The notes under the pieces: generated by a model
Database searches by the model: none
What the model saw: only the letters and a program-made list of their open reading frames with translations
Told to the model about the DNA's origin: nothing
Part shown: positions 643 to 30,342 of the stretch, in pieces
Numbering within the stretch: the stretch's first letter is position 1
How the letters are laid out: the number at the start of each line of letters is the position of its first letter
Made by a program: the position numbers and the translations under genes
IMG/VR virus record: IMGVR_UViG_3300035208_004923
Span: 256,001-320,000 of that record
Source: a virus
Lineage: Duplodnaviria > Caudoviricetes
Direction: 5' to 3' (one strand)
DNA: 64,000 bases

Positions 643-1269
643 TTAATACATATTATTCGGTATGTATCTGCTTTTGATATAATCAGCAACAGCAATTAGT
701 GCTTTAGGCTCATGTTTGCATGCATCAGCAAGATCGTCAGCCATAACTTTCAATTGTGGCCATGCATCAATTTTACCCCACGAACTTGTGCCATTCATGA
801 AAAAACCTTGTACTTGGAATTTTGTATCTTTATATTCGCCAAATCCTCTTGATTTACCTGTTGTGTAATCCCATACTCTAAAGAATATAAATCCTAATGC
901 AGGATGTTCAAAGCAAACAACAGTAGTGTCTGTGTATTGTTTGTTTTTGATAATTTTAGATGGAGTCCATTCTTTTTTGTTTGGCGCAATTACTAAATTT
1001 GTTAGCACATCAACAACTTCTTTACCATTTTTGTACGCTTCTGTTGTGTATAATCTAATTGACGTATAATTCCATCCATCAGTTTTCCAATTACCTTTTG
1101 TATCAATTTCACGAAATTCATCAGGTGTTCCTGCACATCGTGGAACAACTTCTCCTTGATTAAAACCTGGTGCTTTATTGAAACGGTTGATGTAAACGTC
1201 CATGTCTCCAAATAATGTAGCACTTTCGTTTAATGCAAAATCTTCGATTGTTGGTATTCTTCTTATCAT
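643..1269 (-). CDS. Leader-family protein (putative internal head protein)
   Basis: N-terminus MIRRIPTIEDFALNES. Confidence 0.65.
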   Translation of the reverse strand: MIRRIPTIEDFALNESATLFGDMDVYINRFNKAPGFNQGEVVPRCAGTPDEFREIDTKGNWKTDGWNYTSIRLYTTEAYKNGKEVVDVLTNLVIAPNKKEWTPSKIIKNKQYTDTTVVCFEHPALGFIFFRVWDYTTGKSRGFGEYKDTKFQVQGFFMNGTSSWGKIDAWPQLKVMADDLADACKHEPKALIAVADYIKSRYIPNNMY

Positions 1270-1270
1270 A

Positions 1271-1492
1271 TTATATTTTGATTTTATTTATTTGTGTTTC
1301 TAATTCATCTGCAAAGTTTTGTTCAAAATCGCTGGCATCAGCTGATTTGTTATATGCAGTTTTCAAATAGTTATATGCATGGTCATCAAGTTGTTTGAAT
1401 TTTTTAGGGTCATGACCTAATAATACTAAATATTTATCGAATGATTCTTTTTCATCTATAAATTTGTCGAATGACGGTATTCTTTTTTCCAT
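1271..1492 (-). CDS. Leader-family small protein (start re-called at 1492)
   Basis: Internal ATG gives MEKRIPSFDKFIDE and removes the overlap with the upstream ORF. Confidence 0.65.
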   Translation of the reverse strand: MEKRIPSFDKFIDEKESFDKYLVLLGHDPKKFKQLDDHAYNYLKTAYNKSADASDFEQNFADELETQINKIKI

Positions 1493-1500
1493 AATTTTAT

Positions 1501-1698
1501 TTACCAGTATCTTTTTACACAAAATTTTTGTGGTTTCTTTACGTAACTTTCCCATGCACAACTGCAATATGGACAGTGACTTCTATGAACTTCATTGAAA
1601 AACATGCATTGAACACAAATTCTTACTCTAGACCGTGTCAATTCATTTGCACCTACGGGTAAAAATTTCTTATACAATGCTTCTTCTCGTTCTGTCAT
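1501..1698 (-). CDS. Small Cys-rich (Zn-ribbon) protein
   Basis: CVQC...CPYC; TGAATATATAA motif just upstream. Confidence 0.5.
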   Translation of the reverse strand: MTEREEALYKKFLPVGANELTRSRVRICVQCMFFNEVHRSHCPYCSCAWESYVKKPQKFCVKRYW

Positions 1699-1793
1699 AG
1701 TATTTTATTTTATATATTCATAGAACAAAAGACAAAAAAAAATCCAGAGCAATTGCTCTGGATTTGAAAACCAACCGTTAAGATTAGTTTATG

Positions 1794-2225
1794 TTATTTG
1801 TTTTGAATATTGACTTTTATAGGGGCAGCAGATTCCGAACGAGGAACCTTGATTGTAAGTAAACCTTTATCCATAACTGCCACAATTTGTTTCAAATCAA
1901 ATTGGGAGCCAATTTTCCAACCCAAATTGAATGAACGGCGTGTGATGCCGCGGTGTATGTAATGATCTTCGTCACTGACTGTATCACCACTTTTTTTATC
2001 ATTAGATACTCTTAAAATATCAGATTCAACTGCAATATCAATATCATCAGATGTTAATCCGATTGCTGCAATATCAAATTGCAATCCTTCTTTTGTTTCT
2101 TTAATATCAACAGGATAAGAATACTTAGATTCTTGAGCAATGTTAAACATTGATTCCGTGTTAAAGAAATCTTTAAATAAAACTTCGAATGGGGAATTTC
2201 CCAAAATAAAACGATGTTGTGTCAT
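1794..2225 (-). CDS. Small heat-shock protein (Hsp20/IbpA family)
   Basis: YPVDI, YIHRGITRRSF, MDKGLLTI motifs; 143 aa. Confidence 0.9.
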   Translation of the reverse strand: MTQHRFILGNSPFEVLFKDFFNTESMFNIAQESKYSYPVDIKETKEGLQFDIAAIGLTSDDIDIAVESDILRVSNDKKSGDTVSDEDHYIHRGITRRSFNLGWKIGSQFDLKQIVAVMDKGLLTIKVPRSESAAPIKVNIQNK

Positions 2226-2334
2226 AATTAATCCTCCTAAAATAGATTTTTTTTTAATTTGTTTTTGTTACGTTAATTTTTGTTTGCCTAAGCTAAACAG
2301 TAATAACGGTTGGTTTTATTATATATTCAGAAAC

Positions 2335-8093: not shown

Positions 8094-8585
8094 TTATTTT
8101 TTTATCATATCACTGTTCCAAGCCAGTAACGTTGGAACAACACTTTGAAAATCATCTTCGGAATTTAACTCTTTTTTGTCTTTTAATGACTTGATGAAAT
8201 CTGATAATTTTGATACTATGGTATTAACGCCAATCCCAATATGATTACTATGTCCATCAAAATATACGTAATCGCCATTTATATCATCATACATTAAAAT
8301 AACAGGACGATTTGCCCATAATCTTGCTTGCGTTCTTGACCAAAGTTCTCGGTATTTGTATGGTGTTGACAGATTGCATTTAAAACCCATTTCCTCTACA
8401 TTTAATTGCAATTTGAAATTTTTTGTTGGCACGCCATAAATAATAGTAGGATTTTTAACGTAATTCGAAGCAAGAAATACTAAATTTTTAAGTGTTACTT
8501 CCGCATACGTTACTTCATAAATACTTTCGTTTATTATTTGACTTTCATTGATGAATTCGTCAAGTGTTGGTATTCTTCTTTCCAT
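8094..8585 (-). CDS. Leader-family protein
   Basis: MERRIPTLDEFINESQIINES. Confidence 0.7.
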   Translation of the reverse strand: MERRIPTLDEFINESQIINESIYEVTYAEVTLKNLVFLASNYVKNPTIIYGVPTKNFKLQLNVEEMGFKCNLSTPYKYRELWSRTQARLWANRPVILMYDDINGDYVYFDGHSNHIGIGVNTIVSKLSDFIKSLKDKKELNSEDDFQSVVPTLLAWNSDMIKK

Positions 8586-9655
8586 TATACTAATTAATTT
8601 TTAAAATGACTTTGTGCTTCTTTATCCGTGTAAAATTTCTTTTCAACAATATCATAGTATATGCTATCAGATGTTGAACCTGGAAAATAAAGTGAACAAC
8701 CGTTAGATCCTTGGCCCATATTTGGTGTTCCATGATTGTACGCAAAATGTACTGTTGTCCAAATATATGCAGGGAAAGTAAAAACACCGTTTTCTTCTTT
8801 TCCCATTGGCATTTTTCTACCAGAGAAATTATCAATTGTTACAGAATTCATGCCATATTGAAATATGCCGTATTCATGTCTGTTAATAGGTTTTATAGTC
8901 ATATCAATATATCCTCTTGAATTTTTAACATCAGATATATTAAGTTGTATTCCTATTTTTTTGTTAACCAAATCAGAAAATGCTTGGCCCCAATTTTTTA
9001 ATATAGATGCTTCCAATTCAGATTGTGAAGTTATCGTAGAGTCAGATACCATTTGTTCTGATTCGTTTAAAAATTGTGAAGATTCATTGATGAATTCGTC
9101 AAGTGTTGGTATTCTTCTTTCCATTATACTAATTAATTTTTAAAATGACTTTGTGCTTCTTTATCCGTGTAAAATTTCTTTTCAACAATATCATAGTATA
9201 TGCTATCAGATGTTGAACCTGGAAAATAAAGTGAACAACCGTTAGATCCTTGGCCCATATTTGGTGTTCCATGATTGTACGCAAAATGTACTGTTGTCCA
9301 AATATATGCAGGGAAAGTAAAAACACCGTTTTCTTCTTTTCCCATTGGCATTTTTCTACCAGAGAAATTATCAATTGTTACAGAATTCATGCCATATTGA
9401 AATATGCCGTATTCATGTCTGTTAATAGGTTTTATAGTCATATCAATATATCCTCTTGAATTTTTAACATCAGATATATTAAGTTGTATTCCTATTTTTT
9501 TGTTAACCAAATCAGAAAATGCTTGGCCCCAATTTTTTAATATAGATGCTTCCAATTCAGATTGTGAAGTTATCGTAGAGTCAGATACCATTTGTTCTGA
9601 TTCGTTTAAAAATTGTGAAGATTCATTGATGAATTCGTCAAGTGTTGGTATTCTT
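8544..9655. repeat. Tandem duplication with 539-bp period, bounded by a 34-bp leader-coding repeat present three times
   Basis: ttcattgatgaattcgtcaagtgttggtattctt at 8544, 9083 and 9622; the two encoded proteins are identical after residue 3. Confidence 0.9.
8594..9124 (-). CDS. Leader-family protein (duplicate copy)
   Basis: MERRIPTLDEFINES plus a body identical to 9133..9663. Confidence 0.7.
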   Translation of the reverse strand: MERRIPTLDEFINESSQFLNESEQMVSDSTITSQSELEASILKNWGQAFSDLVNKKIGIQLNISDVKNSRGYIDMTIKPINRHEYGIFQYGMNSVTIDNFSGRKMPMGKEENGVFTFPAYIWTTVHFAYNHGTPNMGQGSNGCSLYFPGSTSDSIYYDIVEKKFYTDKEAQSHFKN

Positions 9656-9663
9656 TGTTTCAT
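9133..9663 (-). CDS. Leader-family protein
   Basis: MKQRIPTLDEFINESSQFLNES. Confidence 0.7.
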   Translation of the reverse strand: MKQRIPTLDEFINESSQFLNESEQMVSDSTITSQSELEASILKNWGQAFSDLVNKKIGIQLNISDVKNSRGYIDMTIKPINRHEYGIFQYGMNSVTIDNFSGRKMPMGKEENGVFTFPAYIWTTVHFAYNHGTPNMGQGSNGCSLYFPGSTSDSIYYDIVEKKFYTDKEAQSHFKN

Positions 9664-9694
9664 TCTACTTAATTATTTTTGTATTTTTTACCAA

Positions 9695-9946
9695 TTAGTC
9701 AAGTGCTTTGCCATCAGGATATTCACCTTTTGCAATTGCGTATTTTACAATGTCAACAGTATCAAATGCAGGATGCGGTGCTATACCGCCATTGTATTTT
9801 TTGTCCCATTCTGCTACTGATGAAGGATTATTAATGTCAAATTCTTTATTTACGTATGCTTTAACAACATACATAGAAAACCACGATTTTGGGGTTCTTA
9901 CGCTCTCGTTAATAAATTGTTCTAATGTAGGTATTCTTTGTTTCAT
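9695..9946 (-). CDS. Leader-family small protein
   Basis: MKQRIPTLEQFINES; late-type motif at ~9962. Confidence 0.7.
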   Translation of the reverse strand: MKQRIPTLEQFINESVRTPKSWFSMYVVKAYVNKEFDINNPSSVAEWDKKYNGGIAPHPAFDTVDIVKYAIAKGEYPDGKALD

Positions 9947-9978
9947 TGATATACTTTATTTTATATATTCATATCAAA

Positions 9979-11344: not shown

Positions 11345-11902
11345 TTAAATGTTGATGAATTCTTTTTCTCCAGTTGTATGACTGTAAGTATACACTTCTG
11401 GATTAAATTGTTTTGGTTCAGTTAATTCTTTTGCGTATTTTTTACCACAACCTGGTTTTAAATATGCAATTGTTATGTGTGGGTGGTAATCAGGAAAATC
11501 TGATGTATATTCAAAGTTTTCACATATTTCTTTGTTAAGCTTAAATAAATTATCGCCTTGTATGTCGTACTTTAATACATCATATTTTGGATTTTCAAAA
11601 ATGCTAATAGCATCCGAACTTAATTCAATTGTTGATAAAGATGGCAGCATACTTTTTAACTTTTCCATGTCTGTATCTGCGTGTAAGCCGTAAAGTACAG
11701 TTACGTGTGGCTCTGTTTCAAATCCGTAATCTTCCTCTTCGGTATACAAATCATTGGCATCAACCAATGTATGAATAAAATTGTCCCATCCGTCGGTATT
11801 TACATTTACCATTAGACAACTATAATCGTATACTTGTTTTGATGCCTCATTAATTTGTTTTTGTTCAACAAATTCGTTTAATGTTATGATTCTTTGTTTC
11901 AT
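11345..11902 (-). CDS. 2H phosphodiesterase (T4 gp57B/Acb1-like) carrying the leader peptide
   Basis: Two HxT motifs (EPHVTVLYG, YHPHITIAY); N-terminus MKQRIITLNEFVEQKQINEA. Confidence 0.8.
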   Translation of the reverse strand: MKQRIITLNEFVEQKQINEASKQVYDYSCLMVNVNTDGWDNFIHTLVDANDLYTEEEDYGFETEPHVTVLYGLHADTDMEKLKSMLPSLSTIELSSDAISIFENPKYDVLKYDIQGDNLFKLNKEICENFEYTSDFPDYHPHITIAYLKPGCGKKYAKELTEPKQFNPEVYTYSHTTGEKEFINI

Positions 11903-12166: not shown

Positions 12167-12848
12167 AGCAACTTGTTTTTTTAATGTTTGTTTGTATTTT
12201 ATATATTCATTAAATCTGAAGCATGATGAATATCATAAAAACAAATGCTATATTGAATTTCTTTCCTGTATGATAATTTTGTAACAGCCTTCACCGCATT
12301 CTCGTTTTACTCTATCTGTTACTTGTTTATCATCTGCACATACTATAAGTGATTTCTTATCTTTTGCAACCAAGATTGGCATAAATGGCTTTCCGAAATA
12401 CATGTTAATTTCATCAGCCAAATCATACATTGATTTTTTTATTTCAACCTTTTCTGTTACAAATGTTTCTTCACTCGTGTAATCTAATGTTATAAATTCT
12501 TCTTCCATTTTGTTTCTTTTAATGAACTTTTATTTTTTGAATATACAACTACAATATCCATCTATTTGTTAACGATACGATCTTTAGATATCGTTTAATG
12601 AATGGATATTATTCAGTTGCTGTTTTTGCTTTTTCTTCCATCATTTCTTTCATGATGTAGTAAATATCGTATAAAACATTCACTTGTAAATAACTATCAG
12701 TATTTTGTGGTGCTACATTTAAAAACTTTATTGTAGGTATCTGTTCTTTTTCGATTACTTTTGAATTATTCACTAGATCATAAAACTTTTTGAATTTTTC
12801 TAGTTCATATTCTTGAATCCATATAGTTACTGTCATATACATAATTTA

Positions 12849-15210: not shown

Positions 15211-15711
15211 TTACTTCATTATGTTTACAAACTTTCTGAAAAGTTTTTCTAATAAATCACCTGTTACTCTAACGTCTAATTTGTTTTGTTTATACGTAAC
15301 TGTTTCTCTTTCGTAATCAGTATTTTTGAAACTCCAAGCAGAAGGCGCAGTTGAACCCATTGCTTTTGCAAATCCTTCGATATCTTGAGGTTTAGCACGT
15401 GTAACAGTTAATGTTACTTGTTTGTTTTCAAAAATTTCAGAATCAATACCTACGTATATTCCTCTTTCAGATACACCAGAAATTGAATATGCGTCAAGAT
15501 CTTGATATACTTCTAAATCAAATTCATTAAATAAATTTGTAATAGTAACCCATAAAGCAACTTCTCTATCTGTTGGTTCTAATGGTTCATCTTCATTAAC
15601 TTCATTGAAGTTTTTTGCAACTTTTTGTGCATTCCAATTAAATGTTTTTCCTTCGTTTAATTGTTTTGATTCATTGATGTATTCATCAAGTGTTGGTACT
15701 CTGTTTGCCAT
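15211..15711 (-). CDS. Leader-family protein
   Basis: MANRVPTLDEYINESKQLNEG. Confidence 0.7.
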   Translation of the reverse strand: MANRVPTLDEYINESKQLNEGKTFNWNAQKVAKNFNEVNEDEPLEPTDREVALWVTITNLFNEFDLEVYQDLDAYSISGVSERGIYVGIDSEIFENKQVTLTVTRAKPQDIEGFAKAMGSTAPSAWSFKNTDYERETVTYKQNKLDVRVTGDLLEKLFRKFVNIMK

Positions 15712-16837: not shown

Positions 16838-16937
16838 TGAAACTTTATTTTATTATATATTCATAAATATAATTAAGTTTTAAACTTTTTACCTTTTATG
16901 TATATAAATTATACAAAAATATACTTAAAAGAAACAT

Positions 16938-18126: not shown

Positions 18127-18393
18127 TTAACTAACTCGTAAACCTTCTGCTTTTTTCTGTTCAATAAAAGCATTCATTTCTTCTTCAGTATCAAATAATT
18201 CAGCAGTAATATATCCGTATGATGGATTTTCAGCAGTTTTAATATCTTTTGCTGACATTTGTCCACGAACCATGTAATATGGATTTTTAAGTTGTGGATT
18301 ATCTCTTCGCAAAACAACAAACTTTTGTTTTGCTTTTGCTTCGTTTATGTTTTCATTAATGAAAACGTCTAATGTAGGTATTCTCTTTTCCAT
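18127..18393 (-). CDS. Leader-family small protein
   Basis: MEKRIPTLDVFINENINEA. Confidence 0.7.
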   Translation of the reverse strand: MEKRIPTLDVFINENINEAKAKQKFVVLRRDNPQLKNPYYMVRGQMSAKDIKTAENPSYGYITAELFDTEEEMNAFIEQKKAEGLRVS

Positions 18394-18402
18394 CGTTTAT
18401 TT

Positions 18403-18651
18403 TTATTTTAACCCTCGTCTTTCAACTTCTAGTTTAACAAGATTTCTTTGAAAGTCAAGTGGCGTATTCGGTATAGGATTATCTTTTGAATTATACCATA
18501 TCATTAAAGTTTCATCACTTAACTTTCTTATTTGTGTTTTGTATTCGGCTGGTGTCCAATCATCACCAAGCCATCCTAACGAACGAAGTATTTTTGTTAA
18601 ATTTGAAGATTCGTTAATGAATTCATCAAACTTCGGTATTCTCTTTTCCAT
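18403..18651 (-). CDS. Leader-family small protein
   Basis: MEKRIPKFDEFINES. Confidence 0.7.
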   Translation of the reverse strand: MEKRIPKFDEFINESSNLTKILRSLGWLGDDWTPAEYKTQIRKLSDETLMIWYNSKDNPIPNTPLDFQRNLVKLEVERRGLK

Positions 18652-19814
18652 TATTCGCCTTTATCTTTTTTAATTGCGGCTGCAACTGTATGAACTGCAG
18701 TTTCTGCTATTGTTGTTAAAAATAATCCTTTAGATACTAATTCCAAAGTATGTAATATCCATCCAATTCCTGGTATCAATACAATGATACTTGCAGCAAT
18801 TGCTGTTTCTCCTAAATGTTCAATCATGCCAGCAACACCATGTTCTAAAACATAGCCGGCAAGAATTCCAAACAATGTTCCCATAAACACAAATTCAAAT
18901 GGTCCTGGCGCGCCAATATATTTTGTTAACATTTGAGATGCCTTTTCAAACGCGTTGTTTGCATTTTTTGCAACAAATGCTTCAGCATGATGCATCCAAG
19001 TAAACGGAGGGAATTTTGTTAATTTTTTTGCAATTGATGATACTAATGGCAAATGAATTGTTCCATGCCCGTCAGATTCAAATACGTCATATCCTTCAGT
19101 AATCAATTCAGCCATTGATAAGTATACAGCTTTTTCCATTATGTATTCAATTGATTCATTTGTTTTTGTTGCTGCTGTAATTCCTTGTGTCATTGTTTTT
19201 GCAGCATCACCTGTAAAATATTGAATCGTATGTTTACACATTGCTCCAAGATTCTTTATTTCTTCTGATGTTTTATCAACACCATGTTTATGAATTTTTG
19301 GAGTTGCTGATTCAATAATTTTATCCTTCAATGGCGCATATTTAGATTGCGTTTGGTTATAAATCCATGCCCATGCTTTCTTTAAAAATGTTGCAATTGT
19401 ATTTGAAATAACTTTAACTAATCCAGTAATATCTGAACCTATTTTAATAAGTACTTCTTGTGTTTTCGATAACGCAGATTTTCCTTTTTCTTTTGCAGTT
19501 TCAATTGCTGCAGCTGCTTTATCTTTCCATTTTTGCGCTAAACTTTCGCCAGCTTCATTAATTGATAAACACCATTCATAAACAGCGTTTTCATTTAACG
19601 TTCCTTCAAATAAATCGTTTGTTCCGTTATTTTCTTTAATAATAACAAGTACAGATTTTTCAAGTTCGTTTAGGATTATTGACTTTTCTGACAACAAAGA
19701 TTCGATTAATTTTTCTTTGTGGTCTATTTGAATGAATTTATCATAATCTTTTTGAATTGCAATAAACGCATTCTCGTTTACATATTCGTTTAATGTAGGT
19801 ATTCTATGTTTCAT
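18651..19814 (-). CDS. Leader-family protein with C-terminal hydrophobic helices
   Basis: MKHRIPTLNEYVNEN; hydrophobic FVFMGTLFGILAGYVL and IAASIIVLIPGIGWIL. Confidence 0.7.
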   Translation of the reverse strand: MKHRIPTLNEYVNENAFIAIQKDYDKFIQIDHKEKLIESLLSEKSIILNELEKSVLVIIKENNGTNDLFEGTLNENAVYEWCLSINEAGESLAQKWKDKAAAAIETAKEKGKSALSKTQEVLIKIGSDITGLVKVISNTIATFLKKAWAWIYNQTQSKYAPLKDKIIESATPKIHKHGVDKTSEEIKNLGAMCKHTIQYFTGDAAKTMTQGITAATKTNESIEYIMEKAVYLSMAELITEGYDVFESDGHGTIHLPLVSSIAKKLTKFPPFTWMHHAEAFVAKNANNAFEKASQMLTKYIGAPGPFEFVFMGTLFGILAGYVLEHGVAGMIEHLGETAIAASIIVLIPGIGWILHTLELVSKGLFLTTIAETAVHTVAAAIKKDKGE

Positions 19815-19818: not shown

Positions 19819-20097
19819 TTAATTTCTCTTTTTTAATTTATTTAAAAGATTCTTTGGAATAAACGTCAAATCTGTATCTTCTTCAAACGAAACAAGCCAT
19901 TCGCTATAACTAATGTCTATGACGTCATCACGGTGCTTAGGATCTTTGATTATTTTTAAAAGTTCTTCCCATTCTTTATGTGCAGCAGAACTAGATTTAT
20001 CACCTTCAAATTCATAATCATCTGAATTCATAAAACTTAAAGGATGTGCAATATATTCGTTGACGAATTCATCAAGTGTCGGTATTCTTTTTTTCAT
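19819..20097 (-). CDS. Leader-family small protein
   Basis: MKKRIPTLDEFVNEY (second Met of the ORF track call). Confidence 0.7.
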   Translation of the reverse strand: MKKRIPTLDEFVNEYIAHPLSFMNSDDYEFEGDKSSSAAHKEWEELLKIIKDPKHRDDVIDISYSEWLVSFEEDTDLTFIPKNLLNKLKKRN

Positions 20098-20102: not shown

Positions 20103-20663
20103 TTATTTTGGTTCAATTATTTCTTCTTTGTAACTTTTAAATGGAATAACATTCACACTTAATAATTTTTTAGTATTAAGGTTGCCACTTGGCAATTTTT
20201 CCAATGCAAGATGATATTTATTATATGCGTATTCTTTAACAATTTGAGACATGTCAGTATATTTTGTTGCTTTCAAGAACTTTGTTACTGTTCCTTTATT
20301 TTCAATTAAAAAACCAATTTCGTTTGCAGATTCAGATCCTTTTAATGCAAAAAAGTTAACATAATGACTTACAGATATTTCAGCGCAAAGTGCGTTTGCA
20401 ACTTCAAACACGCTTCTGAACTTTGGCGGTGGTGTACTACAAATATAATATACATTATCTCTACTTGTTGTGTATTCACCATTTTTCAAATTATTTAGAA
20501 AATATGATAAATCTTCCTTTGTTGCATTTTCTTTCATGCTATCATTTGATGCATAAAATGCAGAACCGTCTAACATACCAACCAATATAAATATTGGAGA
20601 TGGACTTGACATATCGGCACCTTCGTTTATAAAGTCATCTAGACTAGGTATTCTTTGTTTCAT
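20103..20663 (-). CDS. Leader-family protein
   Basis: MKQRIPSLDDFINEG. Confidence 0.7.
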   Translation of the reverse strand: MKQRIPSLDDFINEGADMSSPSPIFILVGMLDGSAFYASNDSMKENATKEDLSYFLNNLKNGEYTTSRDNVYYICSTPPPKFRSVFEVANALCAEISVSHYVNFFALKGSESANEIGFLIENKGTVTKFLKATKYTDMSQIVKEYAYNKYHLALEKLPSGNLNTKKLLSVNVIPFKSYKEEIIEPK

Positions 20664-21668: not shown

Positions 21669-21746
21669 ACTAATTTGTTTATTTTATATATTCATAAATT
21701 AAAGCATAAAAAAAAAACGGAACTTTACGCTCCGTTTCAATTTAAC

Positions 21747-22798: not shown

Positions 22799-24508
22799 TT
22801 ATACTAAACCTCCAGCTGGAGTAGCAACGAAGAATGTGAAATACATTGTTTCTGGGTGGAAACCTGCTTCAACAAGAGCGTAACGAGATTTAACGGCAAC
22901 TTTCGGAGTCATTGTACCTTCAGCAATTGTTTGGATAGTTTCAGCCATCAAGTAAGGCATGTATTTTAATCCTGGTTCTTCATCAGCACCTTTACGTCCT
23001 ACTAATACACGAGTATCAGACCAAGACATGTTAGGGTCAACATATACAGTCATACCTGCAACAGCACCTACTGGGTAAAGTGAACCGTTGTTTTGGTTGA
23101 TTGTATTTGCCATTGGAGCAAATGTGAATTGTGCAGAATCTTGTAAGATTGTAGCGATTTGAAGGTTTGTAACAATGAAGTTAGCAGGACCTCTACGACC
23201 TCTTTGAGAGATTACGTTACCACCAGCAAGAATTCTTGAGAAAACTCTACGTTGAACAGTCCATTGGTTTTCAAATGCTGCAGAAGGATTAGCTCCAGCG
23301 AACAATGACATAACAGGAACAGACATTGTAGTAGTTGCACCGTCTTTATTGTTGAATGTTTGGTAAGTTGTACTAGCACTTGGGTCAGTTTGCAAGTTGA
23401 AGTTTTGACCTTCTACTTCAGCAAATGTATTGTGGTTAGTCCATCCTAAAGCAAACGCTCTTGATAAGATGTGTTTGTTGATTGATTGAGATACTTCGTT
23501 CACTAATGAATTTTCAACCATACCTACAACATCGATACCGAATTGACGGTTAAGATCTTGTATTTGTTCAGTTGTTACAGTAGCAGCAGCTTGGTAAGTT
23601 TCAGCTTCAACGAACTTAGTGAATGTTTGAAGACCCATAGTTCTGTAGTAAGTTTGTTCACCAATACCTCTTCTCATTGGTTCTGGGTTAGAAGCACCAT
23701 TTGCATAGTTTCCAGTCCAAGCATCACCATCTTGAGCACCAGCACCAGTATATCCTTGGATATGATCTTCTAAAGCTTTCACTAAAGAAGCAGTTGCAGT
23801 ACAAGGTGTAGCAGCAGGAGAACCATCAGAATCAATTGTAAATGCAGATCCAGTGTTGAATACATCAGCAACTAATAAATGAGGAGTTGAGATAGAAGCA
23901 GTTTGCCAAGCAGAACCGATTTTATATTTTTCGCCAGATTTAAGAGCACGGAAGATTTTGTATGCATCGATACGAGATTTACCAATATAGATTAACTCTA
24001 AGTTGTTTGATCCTGAAGTTGCAACATATTTAGTACCTACTGTGTAAGAACCACCGATGTTAACTTTAATCATTGTTGGGTTTTCTGCGTTTGCATCAGA
24101 TGGGTCGTTTGGTAATTTACCACCAGCATAAACGTAGTCAAGGTAAGTTAATACTCCTGAAGGACCGTTCATTGGAATTACAGGTACAATATCAAAACCG
24201 ATTGTTCTAGCACCAACTTGGATTGCAAGAGGTAAAAGAGAAGGGAATTTGTCACCTGAACCAGTTGCAGCGCTATGGAAAGCAGCACCACCAGCAACTT
24301 GACCTGTAGCCACGTTACCCATACCTGGAGTGTTTTGTAAAGATGCAGCAGGCCATGCCCATCCGCCTACGAAAGAAGATTCATTCAAAGCGTGGAAGTG
24401 GCAATATTTTGATAACCAAGCAAGTTTACTTTTGTCTGTAATTTGCGTTTTTTCTTCTACGATTGGTGCCCATTCTTCGAAAATTTGTTTTTCGTTTAAA
24501 AGTTTCAT
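22799..24508 (-). CDS. gp23: Major capsid protein, T4 gp23-like (probable start MKLLNE at 24508)
   Basis: IVPVIPMNGPSG, QIQDL, RGRRGPANFIV, YMPY, PKVAVKSRYAL; strongly biased codon usage; terminator at 22740-22767. Confidence 0.93.
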   Translation of the reverse strand: MKLLNEKQIFEEWAPIVEEKTQITDKSKLAWLSKYCHFHALNESSFVGGWAWPAASLQNTPGMGNVATGQVAGGAAFHSAATGSGDKFPSLLPLAIQVGARTIGFDIVPVIPMNGPSGVLTYLDYVYAGGKLPNDPSDANAENPTMIKVNIGGSYTVGTKYVATSGSNNLELIYIGKSRIDAYKIFRALKSGEKYKIGSAWQTASISTPHLLVADVFNTGSAFTIDSDGSPAATPCTATASLVKALEDHIQGYTGAGAQDGDAWTGNYANGASNPEPMRRGIGEQTYYRTMGLQTFTKFVEAETYQAAATVTTEQIQDLNRQFGIDVVGMVENSLVNEVSQSINKHILSRAFALGWTNHNTFAEVEGQNFNLQTDPSASTTYQTFNNKDGATTTMSVPVMSLFAGANPSAAFENQWTVQRRVFSRILAGGNVISQRGRRGPANFIVTNLQIATILQDSAQFTFAPMANTINQNNGSLYPVGAVAGMTVYVDPNMSWSDTRVLVGRKGADEEPGLKYMPYLMAETIQTIAEGTMTPKVAVKSRYALVEAGFHPETMYFTFFVATPAGGLV

Positions 24509-24539: not shown

Positions 24540-26591
24540 TTATCTGTTGAATCTATCAAGATTTGCTTTTACGCTTTCCATATAGCTTTTGCTATATCCA
24601 CGTTGTGCAGCTCCAGTTTCTTCAACAATTTGAGCATTTGCTGATTCGTTCAGCGTACCGTTGCCTTCAACTTTATGCAATCCACGAGTTTGCCAGAAAT
24701 TGATTACTTGTCGTTCAGTATTCAATGGGTACAATTTCGATTGTGAAGCAATTTGATTCTTTGCAGATTCAGTTAGAGATTCCCAAGTTGCTTTGTACTC
24801 CTCAGGCATTTTTTCTAACCATAGGTCAGATTTTGGTGCTAGAGATTGAGTTGCTGCTCTTTCAAGTAAAGCAGTCATTTCTTCTTTACTTTTGTGGTTG
24901 TTTTCATTGATAGACGATGCAATCTGTTGTTTTTGAATGTCTGTAAAAGAAATAAATTTCTTAACTTGTTCGCCATCTAAATTCTTTAAGAAAGGATAAT
25001 TTTCAATGTGTTCATTGATTGGATTCATCTTTTGTGTTTGGATAGATTCCAATAAGTTGTCAATTTTGCTTCCTAAAGAAGTATATTTACTTAATATGTT
25101 TTCTTTTTCATTAACAACAGCTTCATTAACAATTGGAGCAGTTGTGTTTGTTTTTACGCTTTCAGAAATTGCTTCAGCAAAACCTGCAACGTTTTCAAGA
25201 TCTTCACGAGTTGCAGCATTTTCACCTAAGTAATCAGCGTATACGTGAACTTCGTTTGTTTTCTCCATGATATAATCTTGGTAGTTCCATAAGTGATTAA
25301 TTTTTTCAGTAATTACTTCTTGGATATAAGATTGTGTTTCATGTAATTCTTTTGCTAAAACTTCTTCAGCATAATTTAAACCGTAATTTGCTTGTTCTGC
25401 AATTTTCTCAGAGTAAGCAATATTTTTTTCAAGTAACGGTCTAATTTTATCGTTTAAATAACCAGCAACATAATTATGATCTTCAGCAATTTTTTCAGTG
25501 TATGCAGCAACATGATTATGATCTTCTGCAATACGTTGTGTATAATCTGCTAACCAGTTATGATCTTCACCAATCAATTCAACATAATTAATTGTATCAG
25601 AAACATATTTAGAAAGTTCATTAGAATATTTCTTGATTGTAACAATTTCACCTTCAAGAACTTTAATTCTTTCATTTGTTTCATCGGTTGTAGATTCTTG
25701 TGGCTTAACAGATAAAGATTCCATTTTCTTAGTCATTTCAGCGATTGCCGATTCAAACTTTTCCATTTGTTCTTTAACATGTAAAGAATACTTGTACATA
25801 TCTTCAGCCGTAACAGTATTATTATTTTTTTCCATGCTTGATGAATTATTTTTATTATATATTGCTTCATTCAATGCATTTTTTTCAACTTGTGCATTTT
25901 GGGTTGAAGCAGGTTTTGTTTTCTTTGTTAAACTAAAATCATATATACTAAAATCAGCACCTTCAATTAATAAATCAGGATACTTATCAGTCACATCGTA
26001 TAAATTAATGCCATCAGCACCATTGAATCCTAATTCTTTATTTAATGAAGGTAATTCAGTTTCCATTACTAATCCTGAACAGATAGATTCGTATACACGT
26101 TCCATTTCAGCATTATCGCCAAATCCGCCATCCGCAACTAAATCATAAGTGAAGATTCTTTTGATTTTAACTTCTTTGTTTTCTTTAACAACACCTGCAG
26201 CTCTAGATGAAATACTAATAGGGAAACCTGAATCAACAAGTTTTCTAGCATTTAAACCAGCAGGGTCAGTATCTAATAATCGAATACGTCCTTTAAGTGT
26301 ACGTGTTTCTTTATCATACCAAATTTTTTCAACAAGATGTGAAATGTTTGCAAGACTTACATCGAATTTTTCAGGATGATCTAATTCACCAGCTAATTTA
26401 TTTCTTTTGATTTTTTCTTGTAAATATTCCAAGTGTGGCATGTATTCGTCTTCTTCGTAAATTCTATGATTTACGTTTTCTTTACCGAATACACAAAAAA
26501 TTCCTTCAAGAATATAATTGTCTTTATCAACAACTTTAAATTCATGACCAGATTTTTCAGTTAATAAAAATACCTTAGCGTTTTTTGACAT
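24540..26591 (-). CDS. gp21: Prohead protease (gp21-like) fused to a long coiled-coil scaffold (gp22-like)
   Basis: LEGIF..ENVNHRIY, GELDHP, SHLV, ISSRAAG, TYDLVADGGF; C-terminal helical region with 14-aa EDHN repeats. Confidence 0.88.
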   Translation of the reverse strand: MSKNAKVFLLTEKSGHEFKVVDKDNYILEGIFCVFGKENVNHRIYEEDEYMPHLEYLQEKIKRNKLAGELDHPEKFDVSLANISHLVEKIWYDKETRTLKGRIRLLDTDPAGLNARKLVDSGFPISISSRAAGVVKENKEVKIKRIFTYDLVADGGFGDNAEMERVYESICSGLVMETELPSLNKELGFNGADGINLYDVTDKYPDLLIEGADFSIYDFSLTKKTKPASTQNAQVEKNALNEAIYNKNNSSSMEKNNNTVTAEDMYKYSLHVKEQMEKFESAIAEMTKKMESLSVKPQESTTDETNERIKVLEGEIVTIKKYSNELSKYVSDTINYVELIGEDHNWLADYTQRIAEDHNHVAAYTEKIAEDHNYVAGYLNDKIRPLLEKNIAYSEKIAEQANYGLNYAEEVLAKELHETQSYIQEVITEKINHLWNYQDYIMEKTNEVHVYADYLGENAATREDLENVAGFAEAISESVKTNTTAPIVNEAVVNEKENILSKYTSLGSKIDNLLESIQTQKMNPINEHIENYPFLKNLDGEQVKKFISFTDIQKQQIASSINENNHKSKEEMTALLERAATQSLAPKSDLWLEKMPEEYKATWESLTESAKNQIASQSKLYPLNTERQVINFWQTRGLHKVEGNGTLNESANAQIVEETGAAQRGYSKSYMESVKANLDRFNR

Positions 26592-26613
26592 GTGATATAT
26601 GTTTTTATTTTAT

Positions 26614-26626
26614 TTTATATATTCAT
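26614..26626 (-). promoter_or_regulatory. Class III (putative late) promoter TGAATATATAA, representative
   Basis: Exact or near copies precede head, leader-family, endonuclease and lysin genes: ~1711, 9962, 12200, 16854, 21685, 26616, 30642, 33242, 36764, 38243, 55900(+). Confidence 0.75.
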
Positions 26627-26641
26627 TTAATTTTGAAGCTT

Positions 26642-26932: not shown

Positions 26933-26933
26933 G

Positions 26934-27230
26934 TTATCGTTTTTTAAATTTATAAATCAAATATATTAATGCGGAAATAATTAAAACTTCGTTAAAATAT
27001 TCCAATAAGTTTGCGCTATTAAAATTAATGTTATGAAACATTGCAAAAAATTCGCCGATTGCGTAAAGAAGAGAGAAAAGAATAGTAACTTTAAGAAAAT
27101 TGATAACTTGCATACGTGTTAAACATATCATAGCTTTAACATTTTGTTTAAATCTTATGTATGTTTTAATAGACTTTAATAATAAGAAAAATGATAAACC
27201 GATTAATAAAATATGCAATGCTGTGTTCAT
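26934..27230 (-). CDS. Small multi-pass membrane protein
   Basis: Three hydrophobic segments, basic C-terminus. Confidence 0.5.
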   Translation of the reverse strand: MNTALHILLIGLSFFLLLKSIKTYIRFKQNVKAMICLTRMQVINFLKVTILFSLLYAIGEFFAMFHNINFNSANLLEYFNEVLIISALIYLIYKFKKR

Positions 27231-27775: not shown

Positions 27776-27872
27776 TAAATTGTGTTATTTTACGTATAGA
27801 ATCACAATGTGATTGTTTAATTATATATTACATTCAAAAATGAACATTATTGAAGAATATAATGGTTTAGGA

Positions 27873-28271
27873 CTATTTATATGTGTATGCAGCCAAACTT
27901 TTACCATATTTATCTGCAAATTCTGGCAACTTTGCATTTGGACATGAATCAATAATTTCTAATGGTTTTCCTTCAAACATTGGACGGTCGGATTGGTCTG
28001 CTTTAAATGATTGCGTTCCGCCTATGGGTTTCATTGATTTTTTTCCTGCCGTGAATACAACTATTGTTTTGATAATGTTTCCGTTGTAATCTTTATTTGC
28101 CCATATTTCAGCTGTTCCATCAGGCCATGTTTCATACACGTTGAAATATTTTGATGAACCGGTTTTGAGATTTAATGTTCCGATTGATGCAACAGCAGCA
28201 CCAGAATTATAACGTCTGTTATTGTTTGCTTCATTGATAAATTCATCTAATGATGGTATTCTTCTTTCCAT
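27873..28271 (-). CDS. Leader-family protein
   Basis: MERRIPSLDEFINEA. Confidence 0.7.
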   Translation of the reverse strand: MERRIPSLDEFINEANNNRRYNSGAAVASIGTLNLKTGSSKYFNVYETWPDGTAEIWANKDYNGNIIKTIVVFTAGKKSMKPIGGTQSFKADQSDRPMFEGKPLEIIDSCPNAKLPEFADKYGKSLAAYTYK

Positions 28272-28436
28272 AATATTTATATTTTTATTTTATATATTTC
28301 CTGGAAAAAAAGCATAAAAAAACGGATTACCTCTTTCGAAGTAATCCGTAATTTTTTTGGAGCCGAATGAATTGTTCGGCAACTCCACCACTTTGTTTAA
28401 TATTTTATGCGGTAAAACAAAGAAACCGCCTTTTCT

Positions 28437-29162
28437 TTAATAATATTTTACAATCTGTTGATTTCCGTTATATACTTCGTCAGCTAATTGCTTTAATTTA
28501 TCGTTTATATTTTGAGTAAAAACATTTTCAGATATGCGAATAAGCCTATACGAATTAAGTATACACCATTTTTCTAATGCCGCATCTTTATCTTGTTTTT
28601 CTTTTAATTGATTATGAATGTTTTTAAAATGCCATATGCCATCGTATTCGATGCATACCTTTAATTTATTTGAATATAAATCTCGAGATATCCTATATTC
28701 ATCAATATTTAAGTTTCCGCCAAATGTCCAATTATCGTCAGGATATTCAGATTTAAAAAAATCTCGTATAATTAATTCATTTTTTGATGAAAACCTTTTA
28801 TTTTTTAAATGACTACTTGTTGTTAATTGCAAATTGCTATTAGTTTTCCACGCTTGCTTTAAACTTAAGCTCATCTTATTACGAGTTTCTATTGAATGAT
28901 TTCGTGTATTGCTACATGAAACTGAACAATAATACTTTTCTTTGCATTTATTTTCATGCTCTTTTATCGAAAATGATTTCCCACAAATATGGCACGAAAC
29001 GATTTTTTCTATAATTTCGCCATTAATCTTTTTATACCGATTAATGGCGTTTTCTTTATTTTTTGCAATGCTTGCAATATTGTCTTTATGCGCCCACCGT
29101 ATATGATTTGCGTATAATGAATGATTTTCAAATCCCATTCCGCAAGTTTCACATTTTTTCAT
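28437..29162 (-). CDS. Zn-finger + PD-(D/E)xK/Vsr-like free-standing endonuclease
   Basis: CETC..HIRWAH, CHIC..YCSVSC, RDLY..IEYDGIWH..KD..LIRI. Confidence 0.75.
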   Translation of the reverse strand: MKKCETCGMGFENHSLYANHIRWAHKDNIASIAKNKENAINRYKKINGEIIEKIVSCHICGKSFSIKEHENKCKEKYYCSVSCSNTRNHSIETRNKMSLSLKQAWKTNSNLQLTTSSHLKNKRFSSKNELIIRDFFKSEYPDDNWTFGGNLNIDEYRISRDLYSNKLKVCIEYDGIWHFKNIHNQLKEKQDKDAALEKWCILNSYRLIRISENVFTQNINDKLKQLADEVYNGNQQIVKYY

Positions 29163-29247
29163 AACATATTTTATTTATCAAATTGGATGTGAAAGAACTC
29201 GAACTAATAAATAAAACGGTTGCCTACTGTTGTAAGCAACCGTTTTG

Positions 29248-29906
29248 TGGAGGTGCGGGGATTCGCAAATGTTATCAATATGTTTCCATATTGTTCAGAC
29301 TATATCATCAACTGATTAATAACGATTAATCAGTGTCGGGCGCTTTATCCTGTTATTAAGGAAACTGTATTCCTCAGGTAGTCGTTGAACCTTCACAAAT
29401 TGTAATTTGCGCTTGGCTGCTGATTGGCATATTCAATTGAACTTAGCGTTCCAGCAATTCACCCGATTTATTTTTACTTGGTGTCACCACCAAGGGGGTC
29501 CAATTCCCATTTAAACCCCGGTCCTAGCAAACGAGCCAAAAGCTCTCTACGTGCGTGTGTTATTTTTGGTATTCGACAATTTCATCAATGAGAATAACCT
29601 GAAACTCGATGAATTGGTTTTAACAACAAAAAGTCATATACAAAATGATGTTGTTATCACATTAAGATATGTTACCAAATTGTTTGAAACCCACATATGA
29701 TTGCGTTAGGTAAATTGCAATCGAAGGTTGCTCTTTGCTTAATCTGATTAAGCAGCCATTAGCATTGACTCTCTTTCGAAAGTTGCTATTGAACGAAGTG
29801 CATTGTTAATAGTTTTGCCTATTATGGTTTTGTACGATATATGATTAGTACAATCATCAGCACGCGAACTTCGAACACTGAAAGCAGTCAAAAGCCGGTC
29901 ACCCCC
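29248..29906 (-). ncRNA. ssrA: tmRNA interrupted by a group I intron
   Basis: 5' GGGGGTGACCGGCTTTTGAC; 3' CACCTCC-A forming an acceptor stem with a G3.U pair; T-arm CGGGG-TT|CGAAT-CCCCG; tag ORF 29819-29748 GKTINNALRSIATFERESMLMAA*. Confidence 0.92.
29266..29513 (-). mobile_element. Group I intron (248 nt, no ORF) in the tmRNA T-loop
   Basis: P AATTGCTGGAA, Q AATCAGCAG, R GTTCAACGACTA, S GATATAGTC; P1 pairing GGGGTT/GACCCC with U.G at the splice site; terminal G. Confidence 0.9.
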
Positions 29907-30129
29907 TTATTTGTTGTTTAATTTATATACATTAAGATTCAATAGTTTTTCTGTAATGAAAATCAATTGGTCTAGATGCAAGTGGAAGAATACTGAAACT
30001 ATCAGTAATTTTTTCTGCATCTGCAATAACTTTTTTTAATTCAATTCCTTCAGATATTATTTCGCGTTTGCTATTTAAAGCAACGTATTTCGATTCTGAA
30101 TTTTTTGGCGTAATTTTTATCGCTGTCAT

Positions 30130-30342
30130 TTAAAATGTTGATTGCATAATTAGTTTTTTAATATCTTCAATTAATGCTGATTTAGCAGCATCTGCGCCGG
30201 GTTTCATATAATTTTCTTTTATCATATGTTCGACAATAACTGTTGCAAGTACTTGCGCACCAGCAGGTTTTTTATCGCCCGCAACTTGAACCATTGCTTC
30301 ATTAACTGAATATTCTTCAATTGTTGGTATTCTTCTTTCCAT
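30130..30342 (-). CDS. Leader-family small protein
   Basis: MERRIPTIEEYSVNEA. Confidence 0.7.
   Translation of the reverse strand: MERRIPTIEEYSVNEAMVQVAGDKKPAGAQVLATVIVEHMIKENYMKPGADAAKSALIEDIKKLIMQSTF

What the first reader, a model, noticed from the sequence alone, without database searches (positions are those of the whole stretch)
643..30342. A portable capsid-targeting leader on 18 genes: a large virion cargo-loading system
Seen: 18 ORFs start with variants of M-x-x-R-I-P-(T/S)-L-D-E-F-I-N-E (starts 1269, 1492, 8585, 9124, 9663, 9946, 11902, 15711, 18393, 18651, 19814, 20097, 20663, 20946, 21407, 21668, 28271, 30342). Apart from one duplicate pair, the bodies share no evident similarity. 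They sit in runs behind the TGAATATATAA-type motif that also precedes the protease-capsid operon. The same (L/I/V)NE tripeptide occurs in the capsid N-terminus (HALNE-S) and repeatedly in the scaffold (ALNEA, IVNEA, VVNEK, PINEH, SINEN, TLNES). Established: T4 internal proteins are packaged via an N-terminal signal (IPIII MKTYQEFIAE) that gp21 cleaves after Glu. Inference: this is a greatly expanded packaging address that loads many effectors into the head for injection with the DNA.
Basis: partly seen in the sequence, partly recalled or inferred. Interest (0 to 1): 0.9.

Follow-up and report, generated by a model that had tools for sequence, protein, structure and literature searches.

The report
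T4-style head-cargo leader, hugely expanded
A complete 421-kb uncultured phage puts one 14-residue N-terminal tag, a lengthened version of phage T4's capsid-targeting sequence, on 63 mutually unrelated proteins (18 in this window); the tag most likely sends them into the phage head, where the head protease cuts it off, about twenty times more proteins than T4's three, but packaging has not been shown experimentally.

Summary
All 18 ORFs carry the leader. Genome-wide, 63 genes on the 420.8-kb phage contig carry it, and none on the other 77 contigs. Their bodies fall into 62 BLASTP clusters.

The leader is conserved as a peptide: synonymous codons at positions 6-14 vary as genome codon usage predicts. 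Its last seven residues match the T4 IPII/IPIII capsid-targeting sequence, including the residues mapped for targeting and for cleavage.

The phage has a gp23-type capsid and an S77 (gp21-type) protease fused to a scaffold. The (L/I/V)-N-E site recurs at the conserved capsid maturation site and in the scaffold.

Relatives carry graded leader versions, from a 10-residue T4-like form to the 14-residue form. Orthologous bodies carry the leader of their own lineage. Leader arrays sit behind a late-promoter-like motif shared with sheath and protease genes, and are swapped between conserved flanks in related contigs. Public data hold at least 61 further unrelated bodies with this leader.

Packaging, cleavage and injection are inferred, not shown. 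I found no paper describing this in huge phages. This scan has noted analogous shared leaders in other huge phages on other DNA.

Verdict: a new, greatly expanded variant of the T4 system (confidence 0.7).

The parts
643..1269 (-). leader gene, 208 aa
1271..1492 (-). leader gene, 73 aa from ATG 1492
8094..8585 (-). leader gene, 163 aa
8594..9124 (-). leader gene, 176 aa; copy 2 of an exact 539-bp tandem duplication
9133..9663 (-). leader gene, 176 aa; copy 1. The duplication junction lies at leader codon 4
9695..9946 (-). leader gene, 83 aa; first gene of an array, 23 nt behind the promoter-like motif
11345..11902 (-). leader gene, 185 aa; 2H phosphoesterase body (Pfam 2_5_RNA_ligase2 and Acb1 both above cut-off). 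Its ortholog in L046 also carries the leader
15211..15711 (-). leader gene, 166 aa. Against the L046 ortholog the leader is 12/14 identical and the body 26%
18127..18393 (-). leader gene, 88 aa
18403..18651 (-). leader gene, 82 aa
18651..19814 (-). leader gene, 387 aa; helical protein conserved across the clade, whose orthologs carry lineage-specific leader versions
19819..20097 (-). leader gene, 92 aa (alternative ATG at 20103)
20103..20663 (-). leader gene, 186 aa
20668..20946 (-). leader gene, 92 aa
20949..21407 (-). leader gene, 152 aa
21414..21668 (-). leader gene, 84 aa; first gene of the 8-gene array downstream of the capsid gene
27873..28271 (-). leader gene, 132 aa
30130..30342 (-). 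leader gene, 70 aa
30357..30626 (-). possible degenerate leader gene, 89 aa, directly behind the promoter-like motif
   Evidence: weak, not counted among the 63
24540..26591 (-). prohead protease (S77, gp21-type; His72 and Ser128/129 invariant in the family) fused to a scaffold-like C-terminal part, which has repeated (I/L)-A-E units and six (L/I/V)NE sites
22799..24508 (-). major capsid protein (Gp23 family), 569 aa; its propeptide ends at the conserved L-N-E|S-S site
9961..9969 (-). AATATATAA late-promoter-like motif
21684..21692 (-). AATATATAA late-promoter-like motif
26615..26623 (-). AATATATAA motif upstream of the protease-scaffold gene
28290..28298 (-). AATATATAA late-promoter-like motif
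30641..30649 (-). AATATATAA late-promoter-like motif
16853..16861 (-). AATATATAA motif heading the run that holds leader gene 15711
12199..12207 (-). AATATATAA motif heading the run that holds leader gene 11902
1710..1718 (-). AATATATAA motif heading the run that holds leader genes 1492 and 1269

Best explanation
The leader is a capsid-targeting sequence of the T4 kind, lengthened by about four residues.

Proposed mechanism (all steps inferred):
1. Late in infection the leader genes are transcribed together with the head and tail genes.
2. The amphipathic stretch (L8, F11, I12 on one helical face, flanked by acidic residues) docks each protein onto the protease-scaffold core while the gp23-type shell closes around it.
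3. The S77 protease then cuts after the Glu of (I/L/V)-x-E, usually INE|S, often again at a second NE site a few residues on. It also cuts the capsid propeptide and shreds the scaffold.
4. The freed, mostly acidic-to-neutral, soluble bodies stay in the head and leave with the DNA into the next cell.

Because the address is a short N-terminal peptide, any gene that acquires it becomes cargo. Recombination between leaders duplicates and swaps cassettes, giving hypervariable cargo islands.

What is shown: the anatomy, the peptide-level selection, the protease and capsid families, the shared site, and the lineage-specific covariation.
For: 1. Scale and specificity: 63 genes, N-terminal only, phage contig only, with 62 unrelated body clusters.

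2. Peptide-level selection: at identical residues of positions 6-14 the same-codon fraction is 0.61, against 0.59 expected. Pairwise nucleotide identity is 0.76 at codon positions 1+2 and 0.53 at position 3.

3. Match to the T4 CTS. IPII and IPIII read from the T4 genome align residue for residue with leader positions 8-14. These include the T4 targeting residues 4 and 7 and processing residues 8 and 10 (PMC9026906).

4. Machinery: Pfam Peptidase_S77 44.8 bits and Gp23 128 bits. The protease aligns to T4 gp21 (5JBL) over the His and Ser motifs, and these residues are invariant in 47 homologs.

5. Shared cleavage site.
- 98% of leader genes have a hydrophobic-x-E site with its Glu at residues 10-25, against 31% of other genes. 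P1' is S, A, G or N in 45 of 57.
- (L/I/V)NE occurs at 11.0 per 1000 aa in residues 15-40 of leader proteins, 1.1 in the rest of those proteins, and 1.84 in the proteome.
- The capsid maturation site L-x-E is positionally conserved in this phage, L098, L099, LR756500.1, Lak-A1 and PTm1.
- INES and LNES sites are conserved in the protease-scaffold family.

6. The leader tracks the phage lineage, not the body.
- LR756500.1 (capsid 47% identical) has about 20 genes with its own 13-residue version.
- A 389.6-kb contig has a 10-residue T4-like version on 5 genes directly upstream of its protease.
- Lak-A1 has another version, with L-x-E|S, on at least 12 genes.
- Orthologs of the 387-aa protein form a graded series between the short and long forms.
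- In one ortholog pair the leader is 12/14 identical while the body is 26% identical.

7. Portability. Pfam domains (M16 peptidase, cytidylyltransferase, 2H phosphoesterase) begin just after the leader. Of 99 public proteins with the leader and a body of at least 60 residues, 61 have bodies with no homolog in this phage, in 83 clusters overall. Leader arrays are replaced between conserved flanks in L045, L046, L050 and L054. The junction of the 539-bp tandem duplication lies inside the leader.

8. Timing. The AATATATAA motif sits 21-36 nt upstream of the tail sheath gene (phrog_34521, 2e-100), baseplate- and fibre-like genes, the protease-scaffold gene and at least 10 leader arrays.

9. Only 1 of 63 leader proteins has a TM-like segment, against 8% of other small proteins.
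Against: - There are no virion proteomics, no cleavage data and no isolate, so packaging and ejection are inferred.
- The bodies are not basic (median pI 6.5; 22% above pI 8, against 39% of other small proteins), unlike the T4 IPs.
- Sixty-three cargo species is far beyond any documented case.
- Some bodies (a weak LicD-like hit, a cytidylyltransferase-like domain, an M16 peptidase) look like enzymes that would work in the producing cell.
- Arg4 and Ile5 are conserved at codon level (AGA 90%, ATA 87%, against 49% and 34% genome-wide), so a short nucleic-acid constraint is superimposed on the peptide signal.
- Six of the 63 lack a site at residues 12-17.
- The N-terminal R-I-P part has no T4 counterpart, and its role is unknown.
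Confidence: 0.7

Rival explanations
1. The leader is a late-assembly or docking tag for another destination: tail, baseplate, head surface, a membrane-associated assembly site, or export from the cell. It would not be a head-interior address.
For: The promoter-like motif is shared with tail genes as well as head genes. This scan has described N-terminal docking peptides on virion-surface adhesins in another giant phage (e1-158929; not checked here). The bodies are not basic.
Against: The residue-for-residue match to the T4 CTS, and the graded series leading to it. The leader ends in the same site as the capsid propeptide and the scaffold. There is no hydrophobic signal-peptide core (listing). 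In a relative, five leader genes sit directly upstream of the protease gene.
Confidence: 0.1
2. The leader is the recognition sequence of a modifying enzyme, chaperone or protease that acts on many substrates in the infected cell, in the manner of a RiPP leader or a degron. The proteins would not be packaged.
For: This scan re-read a shared N-terminal tag in RB43-like phages as the site of a radical-SAM/SPASM enzyme (e1-127136). One enzyme serving many precursors with a common leader is a known pattern. The phage has two radical-SAM genes.
Against: Those two genes lie at window 45.6-47.1 kb, more than 15 kb from the nearest leader gene, and no gene recurs beside the 12 or more leader arrays. 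The bodies are folded-domain-sized (56-373 aa after the tag) and include complete enzyme domains. The leader resembles the T4 CTS, whose function is known.
Confidence: 0.08
3. The leader is the remnant of one paralogous family whose bodies have diverged beyond recognition. It would be a conserved N-terminal structural element with no addressing role.
For: In LR756500.1, five of the 18 leader proteins tested form one paralog family. In L098, three leader genes are paralogs.
Against: There are 62 of 63 distinct clusters here. Several bodies belong to unrelated, widespread Pfam families whose domains start after the leader. A further 61 unrelated bodies exist in public data. In the AF2 model of the 387-aa protein, leader residues 1-17 have pLDDT below 50; the model is weak overall (mean pLDDT 60.9).
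Confidence: 0.05
4. The conservation is at nucleic-acid level: a translation-initiation or mRNA element, or a recombination site for cassette shuffling. The peptide would be incidental.
For: AGA-ATA at codons 4-5 is conserved beyond codon usage. The 539-bp duplication recombined inside the leader. Promoter-terminator cassettes mediate shuffling in T4-type phages (PMC4122927, title and abstract as listed).
Against: At positions 6-14, synonymous codons are as variable as genome usage predicts, and third positions are much less conserved than first and second positions. Distant lineages keep the peptide pattern with different DNA.
Confidence: 0.03

Closest known systems
[quoted passage not shown]
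   Same: A short N-terminal peptide on otherwise unrelated proteins. The same pattern applies: hydrophobic or aromatic residue at -6, Phe at -3, Ile/Leu at -2, Glu at P1, and a small P1' residue. The protease family (S77) and capsid family (gp23) are the same. The capsid propeptide and the scaffold carry the same kind of site. The loci are variable between relatives.
   Different: 14 residues instead of 10, with an extra R-I-P-(T/S) segment. 63 genes (about 10% of the gene set) instead of 3. The bodies are not basic. The protease is fused to the scaffold. The phage is a 421-kb relative of the Lak megaphages, not a Straboviridae member. Function is untested here.
Propeptide-bearing inner-body and ejection proteins of phiKZ, 201phi2-1 and SPN3US (S80 protease, sites S/A/G-x-E or A-x-E)
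   Same: A giant phage head loaded with dozens of proteins that are trimmed after Glu by a gp21-related protease. Propeptides contain multiple sites (PMC9026906, PMC5694885).
   Different: Those propeptides are not one shared leader. Many of those proteins are paralogs. The protease family and the site differ.
Phage P1 Dar anti-restriction proteins packaged in the head
   Same: Head-packaged proteins delivered with the DNA as counter-defence (PMC9024508, PMC12810830; from their abstracts).
   Different: Incorporation is hierarchical and protein-dependent. There is no common cleavable leader on many unrelated proteins.
Encapsulin cargo-loading peptides
   Same: A short portable peptide addresses unrelated cargo to the interior of an HK97-fold shell (my own knowledge).
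   Different: The peptide is usually C-terminal, is not cleaved, binds the shell protein, and involves no DNA or injection.
RiPP-type shared leaders, and the radical-SAM-linked N-terminal tag of RB43-like phages (scan note e1-127136)
   Same: One conserved N-terminal peptide on many unrelated sequences.
   Different: No maturase is linked here. The bodies are whole domains. The leader matches the T4 CTS.

Membership tests
T4-type capsid targeting sequence / internal-protein system | Short N-terminal peptide with targeting residues (aromatic or hydrophobic, then Phe three residues later) followed by (I/L)-x-E | tested here: met
   Leader positions 8, 11, 12 and 14 align with T4 IPIII residues 4, 7, 8 and 10 (PMC9026906)
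T4-type capsid targeting sequence / internal-protein system | The same peptide on proteins that are otherwise unrelated | tested here: met
   62 clusters among 63 bodies; 61 further unrelated bodies in public data
T4-type capsid targeting sequence / internal-protein system | Phage encodes a gp21-type (S77) prohead protease with its catalytic residues | tested here: met
   PF03420, 44.8 bits against a cut-off of 27; aligned to 5JBL; His72 and Ser128/129 invariant
T4-type capsid targeting sequence / internal-protein system | gp23-type capsid whose propeptide is removed at the same kind of site | tested here: met
   PF07068, 128 bits; conserved L-N-E|S at the propeptide end in six related phages. 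Cleavage itself is not shown
T4-type capsid targeting sequence / internal-protein system | Expressed late, together with the head genes | tested here: inconclusive
   Shared AATATATAA motif with the sheath, baseplate-like and protease genes; no transcript data
T4-type capsid targeting sequence / internal-protein system | Leader necessary and sufficient for packaging into proheads; removed by the protease; protein ejected with the DNA | not testable with these tools
   Needs virion mass spectrometry or fusion-protein packaging assays
T4-type capsid targeting sequence / internal-protein system | Cargo are small basic DNA-associated proteins (typical of the T4 IPs, not strictly defining) | tested here: not met
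   Median pI 6.5; 22% above pI 8
Sec/Tat signal peptide | Hydrophobic core of 10 or more residues after a charged N-terminus | tested here: not met
   The leader is acidic and amphipathic with no hydrophobic run; 1 of 63 has any TM-like segment
RiPP or radical-SAM-tag precursor system | Maturase gene linked to the tagged genes | tested here: not met
   The only two radical-SAM genes on the phage lie more than 15 kb from any leader gene
phiKZ-type inner-body proteins | S80 protease with S/A/G-x-E sites and paralogous inner-body families | tested here: not met
   The protease scores as S77; the sites are (L/I/V)-x-E; the bodies are not paralogs

The most novel reading that the evidence does not exclude
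Lak-related megaphages run a plug-and-play protein-injection system. Any gene that acquires the lineage's 10-15-residue leader is loaded into the head and delivered with the DNA. About a tenth of this phage's genes (63 unrelated proteins), and well over 100 unrelated families across its close relatives, would then be pre-made effectors acting in the first seconds of infection. They would include candidate counter-defence enzymes such as the 2H/Acb1-like phosphodiesterase. The leader would then be a sequence-only label that picks injected effectors out of the unannotated genes of huge phages.
Probability: 0.45. Interest if true: 0.85.

Novelty: new variant of a known kind. Interest (0 to 1): 0.72.

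Why it matters
Most genes of huge phages have no known function. If this leader is a head address, a 14-residue motif assigns a location (inside the virion) and a timing (acting on entry) to 63 orphan genes of one phage. The lineage-specific versions would do the same for many more genes in Lak-type and related megaphages of gut and fermentation habitats.

It would raise the known capacity of the T4-type cargo system from three proteins to dozens. It shows how the address evolves: a graded series from a 10-residue to a 14-residue form that follows the protease-scaffold lineage. It also shows how cargo sets turn over, through cassette exchange and unequal crossing-over at the leader.

The idea is directly testable by virion or metaproteomic mass spectrometry. 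It also offers new portable tags for loading proteins into large capsids.

Tried and rejected
- Complex prediction. Protease-scaffold (47-row alignment) with the first 32 residues of the leader proteins (63 rows): no verdict, score 0.00, controls not run. This is evidence neither for nor against binding.
- Exact-pattern scans of viral contigs for the leader found nothing. The metagenome scan did find it.
- The genome search with the 16-column leader profile on LR756500.1, PTm1 and Lak-A1 returned nothing. De novo N-terminal k-mer counts on the fetched records later showed that two of them have their own leaders, so that tool route was simply insensitive.
- Tenacibaculum phage PTm1 (capsid 30% identical) shows no enriched N-terminal motif, so no cultured relative with a virion proteome could be used.
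- No body of this phage has a homolog among LR756500.1 ORFs. The exception is a non-RIP variant, C1 178410, a cytidylyltransferase-like protein of 652 aa, whose relative there carries that phage's own leader.
- The AF2 model of the 387-aa conserved leader protein was too weak for a fold search (mean pLDDT 60.9).
- Megablast of the head operon against GenBank phages gave no match.
- The idea that the cargo would be basic like the T4 IPs was rejected.
- Radical-SAM linkage was rejected.
- Pfam and PHROGs name only a handful of the 63 bodies.

Full report
**Observation.** Translating the 18 stated starts on the minus strand gives, in every case, an ORF that opens with M-x-x-R-(I/V)-(P/I)-x-(L/I/F)-(D/E/N)-x-(F/Y) and mostly ends ...(I/V/L)-N-E. 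A six-frame scan of all 64 kb finds no further copy; all lie between 1269 and 30342.

The window is positions 256001-320000 of contig C1 of a 78-contig assembly. C1 is 425,361 bp at 31% GC. Its last 4.6 kb repeat its first 4.6 kb, so it is a closed genome of about 420,768 bp. By crude ORF calling, 564 of 609 genes are on one strand.

A profile built from the 14 residues and run over all six frames of the whole assembly finds 63 ORFs that start with the leader. All are on C1, between 51 kb and 412 kb, and none on the remaining 1.18 Mb. A few divergent variants exist beyond the 63. The reversed-pattern control gave zero.

With the first 22 residues removed, the 63 proteins fall into 62 BLASTP clusters at E<=1e-3. 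The only pair is window 9124/9663.

Among gene pairs with the same residue at a leader position, the fraction that also share the codon is 0.61 for all positions except 4 and 5. Genome codon usage predicts 0.59. Mean pairwise nucleotide identity over codons 4-14 is 0.76 at codon positions 1+2 and 0.53 at position 3 (codon tables). Selection therefore acts on the peptide. The exception is Arg4-Ile5, which is AGA-ATA in about 90% of genes, against 49% and 34% genome-wide. A short nucleic-acid constraint next to the start codon appears to be superimposed.

**The head machinery.** ORF 24540-26591 scores as Peptidase_S77 (PF03420, 44.8 bits) and as PHROG 'head maturation protease'. ORF 22799-24508 scores as Gp23 (PF07068, 128 bits). 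The protease aligns to T4 gp21 (PDB 5JBL) across the His and Ser motifs. His72 and Ser128/129 are invariant in an alignment of 47 homologs, drawn from a family of at least 1,293 protease-scaffold fusions.

The C-terminal two thirds of this protein is scaffold-like. It has repeated units that each contain (I/L)-A-E, and six (L/I/V)-N-E sites in 683 residues, against 1.84 per 1000 in the proteome. The family consensus keeps an I-N-E-S just after the protease domain and an L-N-E-S near the C-terminus.

The capsid propeptide ends H-A-L-N-E|S-S. The same position reads L-N-E|S in two relatives, L-Y-E|N in LR756500.1, L-N-E|D in Lak-A1 and I-N-E|N in PTm1.

**Match to T4.** From the T4 genome itself, IPII and IPIII begin MKTYQEFIAE followed by Ala, and IPI begins MKTFKEF.... 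The literature gives the same CTS (PMC8442874). It maps targeting to residues 4 and 7 and processing to residues 8 and 10, and states that all T4 internal head proteins join the core through a CTS (PMC9026906, PMC5694885).

Aligned from the cleaved Glu, these four residues correspond to L/F8, F/Y11, I/L/V12 and E14 of the leader here. These are its most conserved side chains after R4, I5 and P6.

A hydrophobic-x-E site with its Glu at residues 10-25 is present in 98% of leader genes, against 31% of other genes. In 49 of the 57 genes with a site at residues 12-17 the Glu is at residue 14, and the next residue is S, A, G or N in 45 of those 57. A second (L/I/V)NE is six-fold enriched in residues 15-40 (11.0 against 1.84 per 1000). 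It is, if anything, depleted in the rest of the bodies (1.1 per 1000). This fits the multiple-site propeptides described for T4, phiKZ and SPN3US (PMC9026906, PMC5694885).

**Relatives.** The closest GenBank capsids are LR756500.1 (462 kb, 47% identity) and the Lak megaphages of Prevotella (40%). I fetched LR756500.1 whole and counted N-terminal k-mers. About 20 genes begin with a 13-residue version, MKY(I/L)xxY(E/D)(E/D)F(L/I)xE. In 400 kb of Lak-A1 read with code 15, at least 12 genes begin with another version that contains L-(L/I/V)-E|S-L-F-D-D.

A 389.6-kb metagenome contig whose protease is 45% identical has five genes directly upstream of the protease that begin with a 10-residue form, MK(S/T)FSEFLNE, almost the T4 sequence. 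A 250-kb contig (47% identical) has the R-I-S-T-L-E-Q-F-V-N-E form.

The clearest evidence comes from the 387-aa leader protein (window 18651-19814). It has orthologs in 11 other clusters, and their N-termini run in a graded series from the short form (M-K-L-x-x-(Y/F)-(E/Q)-Q-F-...) through intermediates to the full R-I-P-T-L-D-E-F-I-N-E, while the body stays alignable throughout. The leader therefore follows the phage lineage, not the body. The 14-residue form looks like a three- or four-residue extension of a T4-type CTS.

**Portability and turnover.**
- Where bodies have Pfam domains, the domain begins just after the leader: M16 peptidase from about residue 17, a cytidylyltransferase-like domain from about 27, and a 2H phosphoesterase/Acb1-like domain from about 30.
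- A degenerate DNA pattern for the leader found 13 metagenome contigs. They are 70-85% identical to C1 in shared genes. About half of their leader genes have no homolog in C1.
- In three loci, conserved flanking genes bracket different leader arrays. One of these is the 8-gene array downstream of the capsid gene.
- In one ortholog pair the leader is 12/14 identical while the body is 26% identical.
- A profile search of 1.84 billion representative proteins gave 110 hits at E<=0.001, and 101 of them start with the leader. Of the 99 with a body of at least 60 residues, 61 have no similarity to any C1 cargo. The set forms 83 clusters.
- The duplicate pair in the window is an exact 539-bp tandem repeat whose left junction falls at leader codon 4. 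This is the signature of unequal crossing-over between the leaders of neighbouring genes.

**Expression context.** AATATATAA occurs 82 times on C1, 71 times on the gene strand, typically 21-36 nt upstream of a start codon. It precedes the protease-scaffold gene, the tail sheath gene (phrog_34521, 2e-100), baseplate-, fibre- and decoration-like genes, and at least ten leader arrays. All 18 leader genes of the window lie in runs headed by it. This is consistent with late co-expression but does not prove it.

**What argues against, and the rivals.**
- The bodies are not basic (median pI 6.5), unlike the T4 IPs.
- Several look like biosynthetic enzymes.
- Nothing shows packaging.
- A modification-tag reading, raised by an earlier scan note on RB43-like phages, finds no support. 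The only radical-SAM genes on the phage are more than 15 kb from any leader gene, and no gene recurs beside the arrays.
- A signal-peptide reading fails for lack of a hydrophobic core.
- A paralog-remnant reading fails on the 62 clusters and the unrelated Pfam families.
- A DNA-element reading fails on synonymous variation.
- A different virion destination cannot be excluded from sequence alone.

**Literature and earlier scan notes.** The concept is established for T-even phages: diverse internal proteins that share only a CTS, possibly a way to load varied proteins (PMC3012670, PMC9026906). Full-text searches combining the CTS term with huge, jumbo or megaphage terms returned no paper that holds both. 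The 2026 jumbo-phage review mentions only the phiKZ inner-body proteins.

This scan has noted the same leader in neighbouring windows of this genome, and analogous shared leaders in several other huge phages on other DNA.

**Verdict.** It is a new, greatly expanded and lengthened variant of the T4 capsid-targeting system in a Lak-related megaphage. Packaging, cleavage and injection are still to be shown.

Noticed in passing
G000:C1, whole contig (the window is 256001-320000): C1 is a closed phage genome of about 420.8 kb (4.6-kb terminal overlap) sitting inside a 1.6-Mb, 78-contig 'bacterial' genome bin of similar GC. It is most likely mis-binned; no integration junction was looked for.
   Followed up: partly
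window 8561-9720: Exact 539-bp tandem duplication (gene 9663 body, intergenic spacer and next leader). Its junction lies at codon 4 of the leader. It could also be an assembly artefact.
   Followed up: yes
window 25000-25600 (scaffold part of ORF 24540-26591): Run of roughly 14-residue units, each with (I/L)-A-E followed by D-H-N...Y. The units are conserved as Y-x-x-(L/I)-A-E across 47 homologs. They may be both cleavage sites and docking sites for leaders.
   Followed up: partly
window 33227-33249, 36750-36771, 38228-38250, and elsewhere on C1 (7648, 11194, 369071): Several GIY-YIG-like homing-endonuclease genes (N-termini Y-V-Y-K-V-T...G-x-F-Y-I-G) sit directly behind the same AATATATAA motif as the structural genes.
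   Followed up: no
leader codons 4-5 of all 63 genes: Arg4 is AGA in 90% and Ile5 is ATA in 87% of genes, far above genome usage (49% and 34%). This is a codon-level constraint next to the start codon, unexplained.
   Followed up: partly
P0133, P0181, P0184 (public proteins): Single predicted ORFs that contain two copies of the leader, one at residue 1 and one about 70-120 residues in. Either two cassettes are fused by read-through or miscalling, or these are polyproteins cut by the head protease.
   Followed up: no
Lak-A1 (MK250016.1) about 311.3-313.5 kb and 197-200 kb: Two other N-terminally similar gene sets: five tandem genes starting M-K-(V/I)-Q-I-R-x-G-V-F-E-T-N-S-S-S, and about nine small genes starting M-I-K-F-K. 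These look like paralog families rather than portable leaders.
   Followed up: no
window 28437-29162: HNH endonuclease-like gene (phrog_559, 3e-9) lying between the head operon and the leader genes.
   Followed up: no
G000:C1 176452-178410 (L012:6452-8410): 652-aa protein with a cytidylyltransferase-like domain and a non-RIP leader variant ending ...T-L-E-Q-F-I-N-E|T. Its homolog in LR756500.1 carries that phage's own leader. It may be a conserved head-targeted enzyme.
   Followed up: partly
L098 13861-15108: An IS605 OrfB/TnpB-like gene lies immediately downstream of the capsid gene in the 389.6-kb relative.
   Followed up: no
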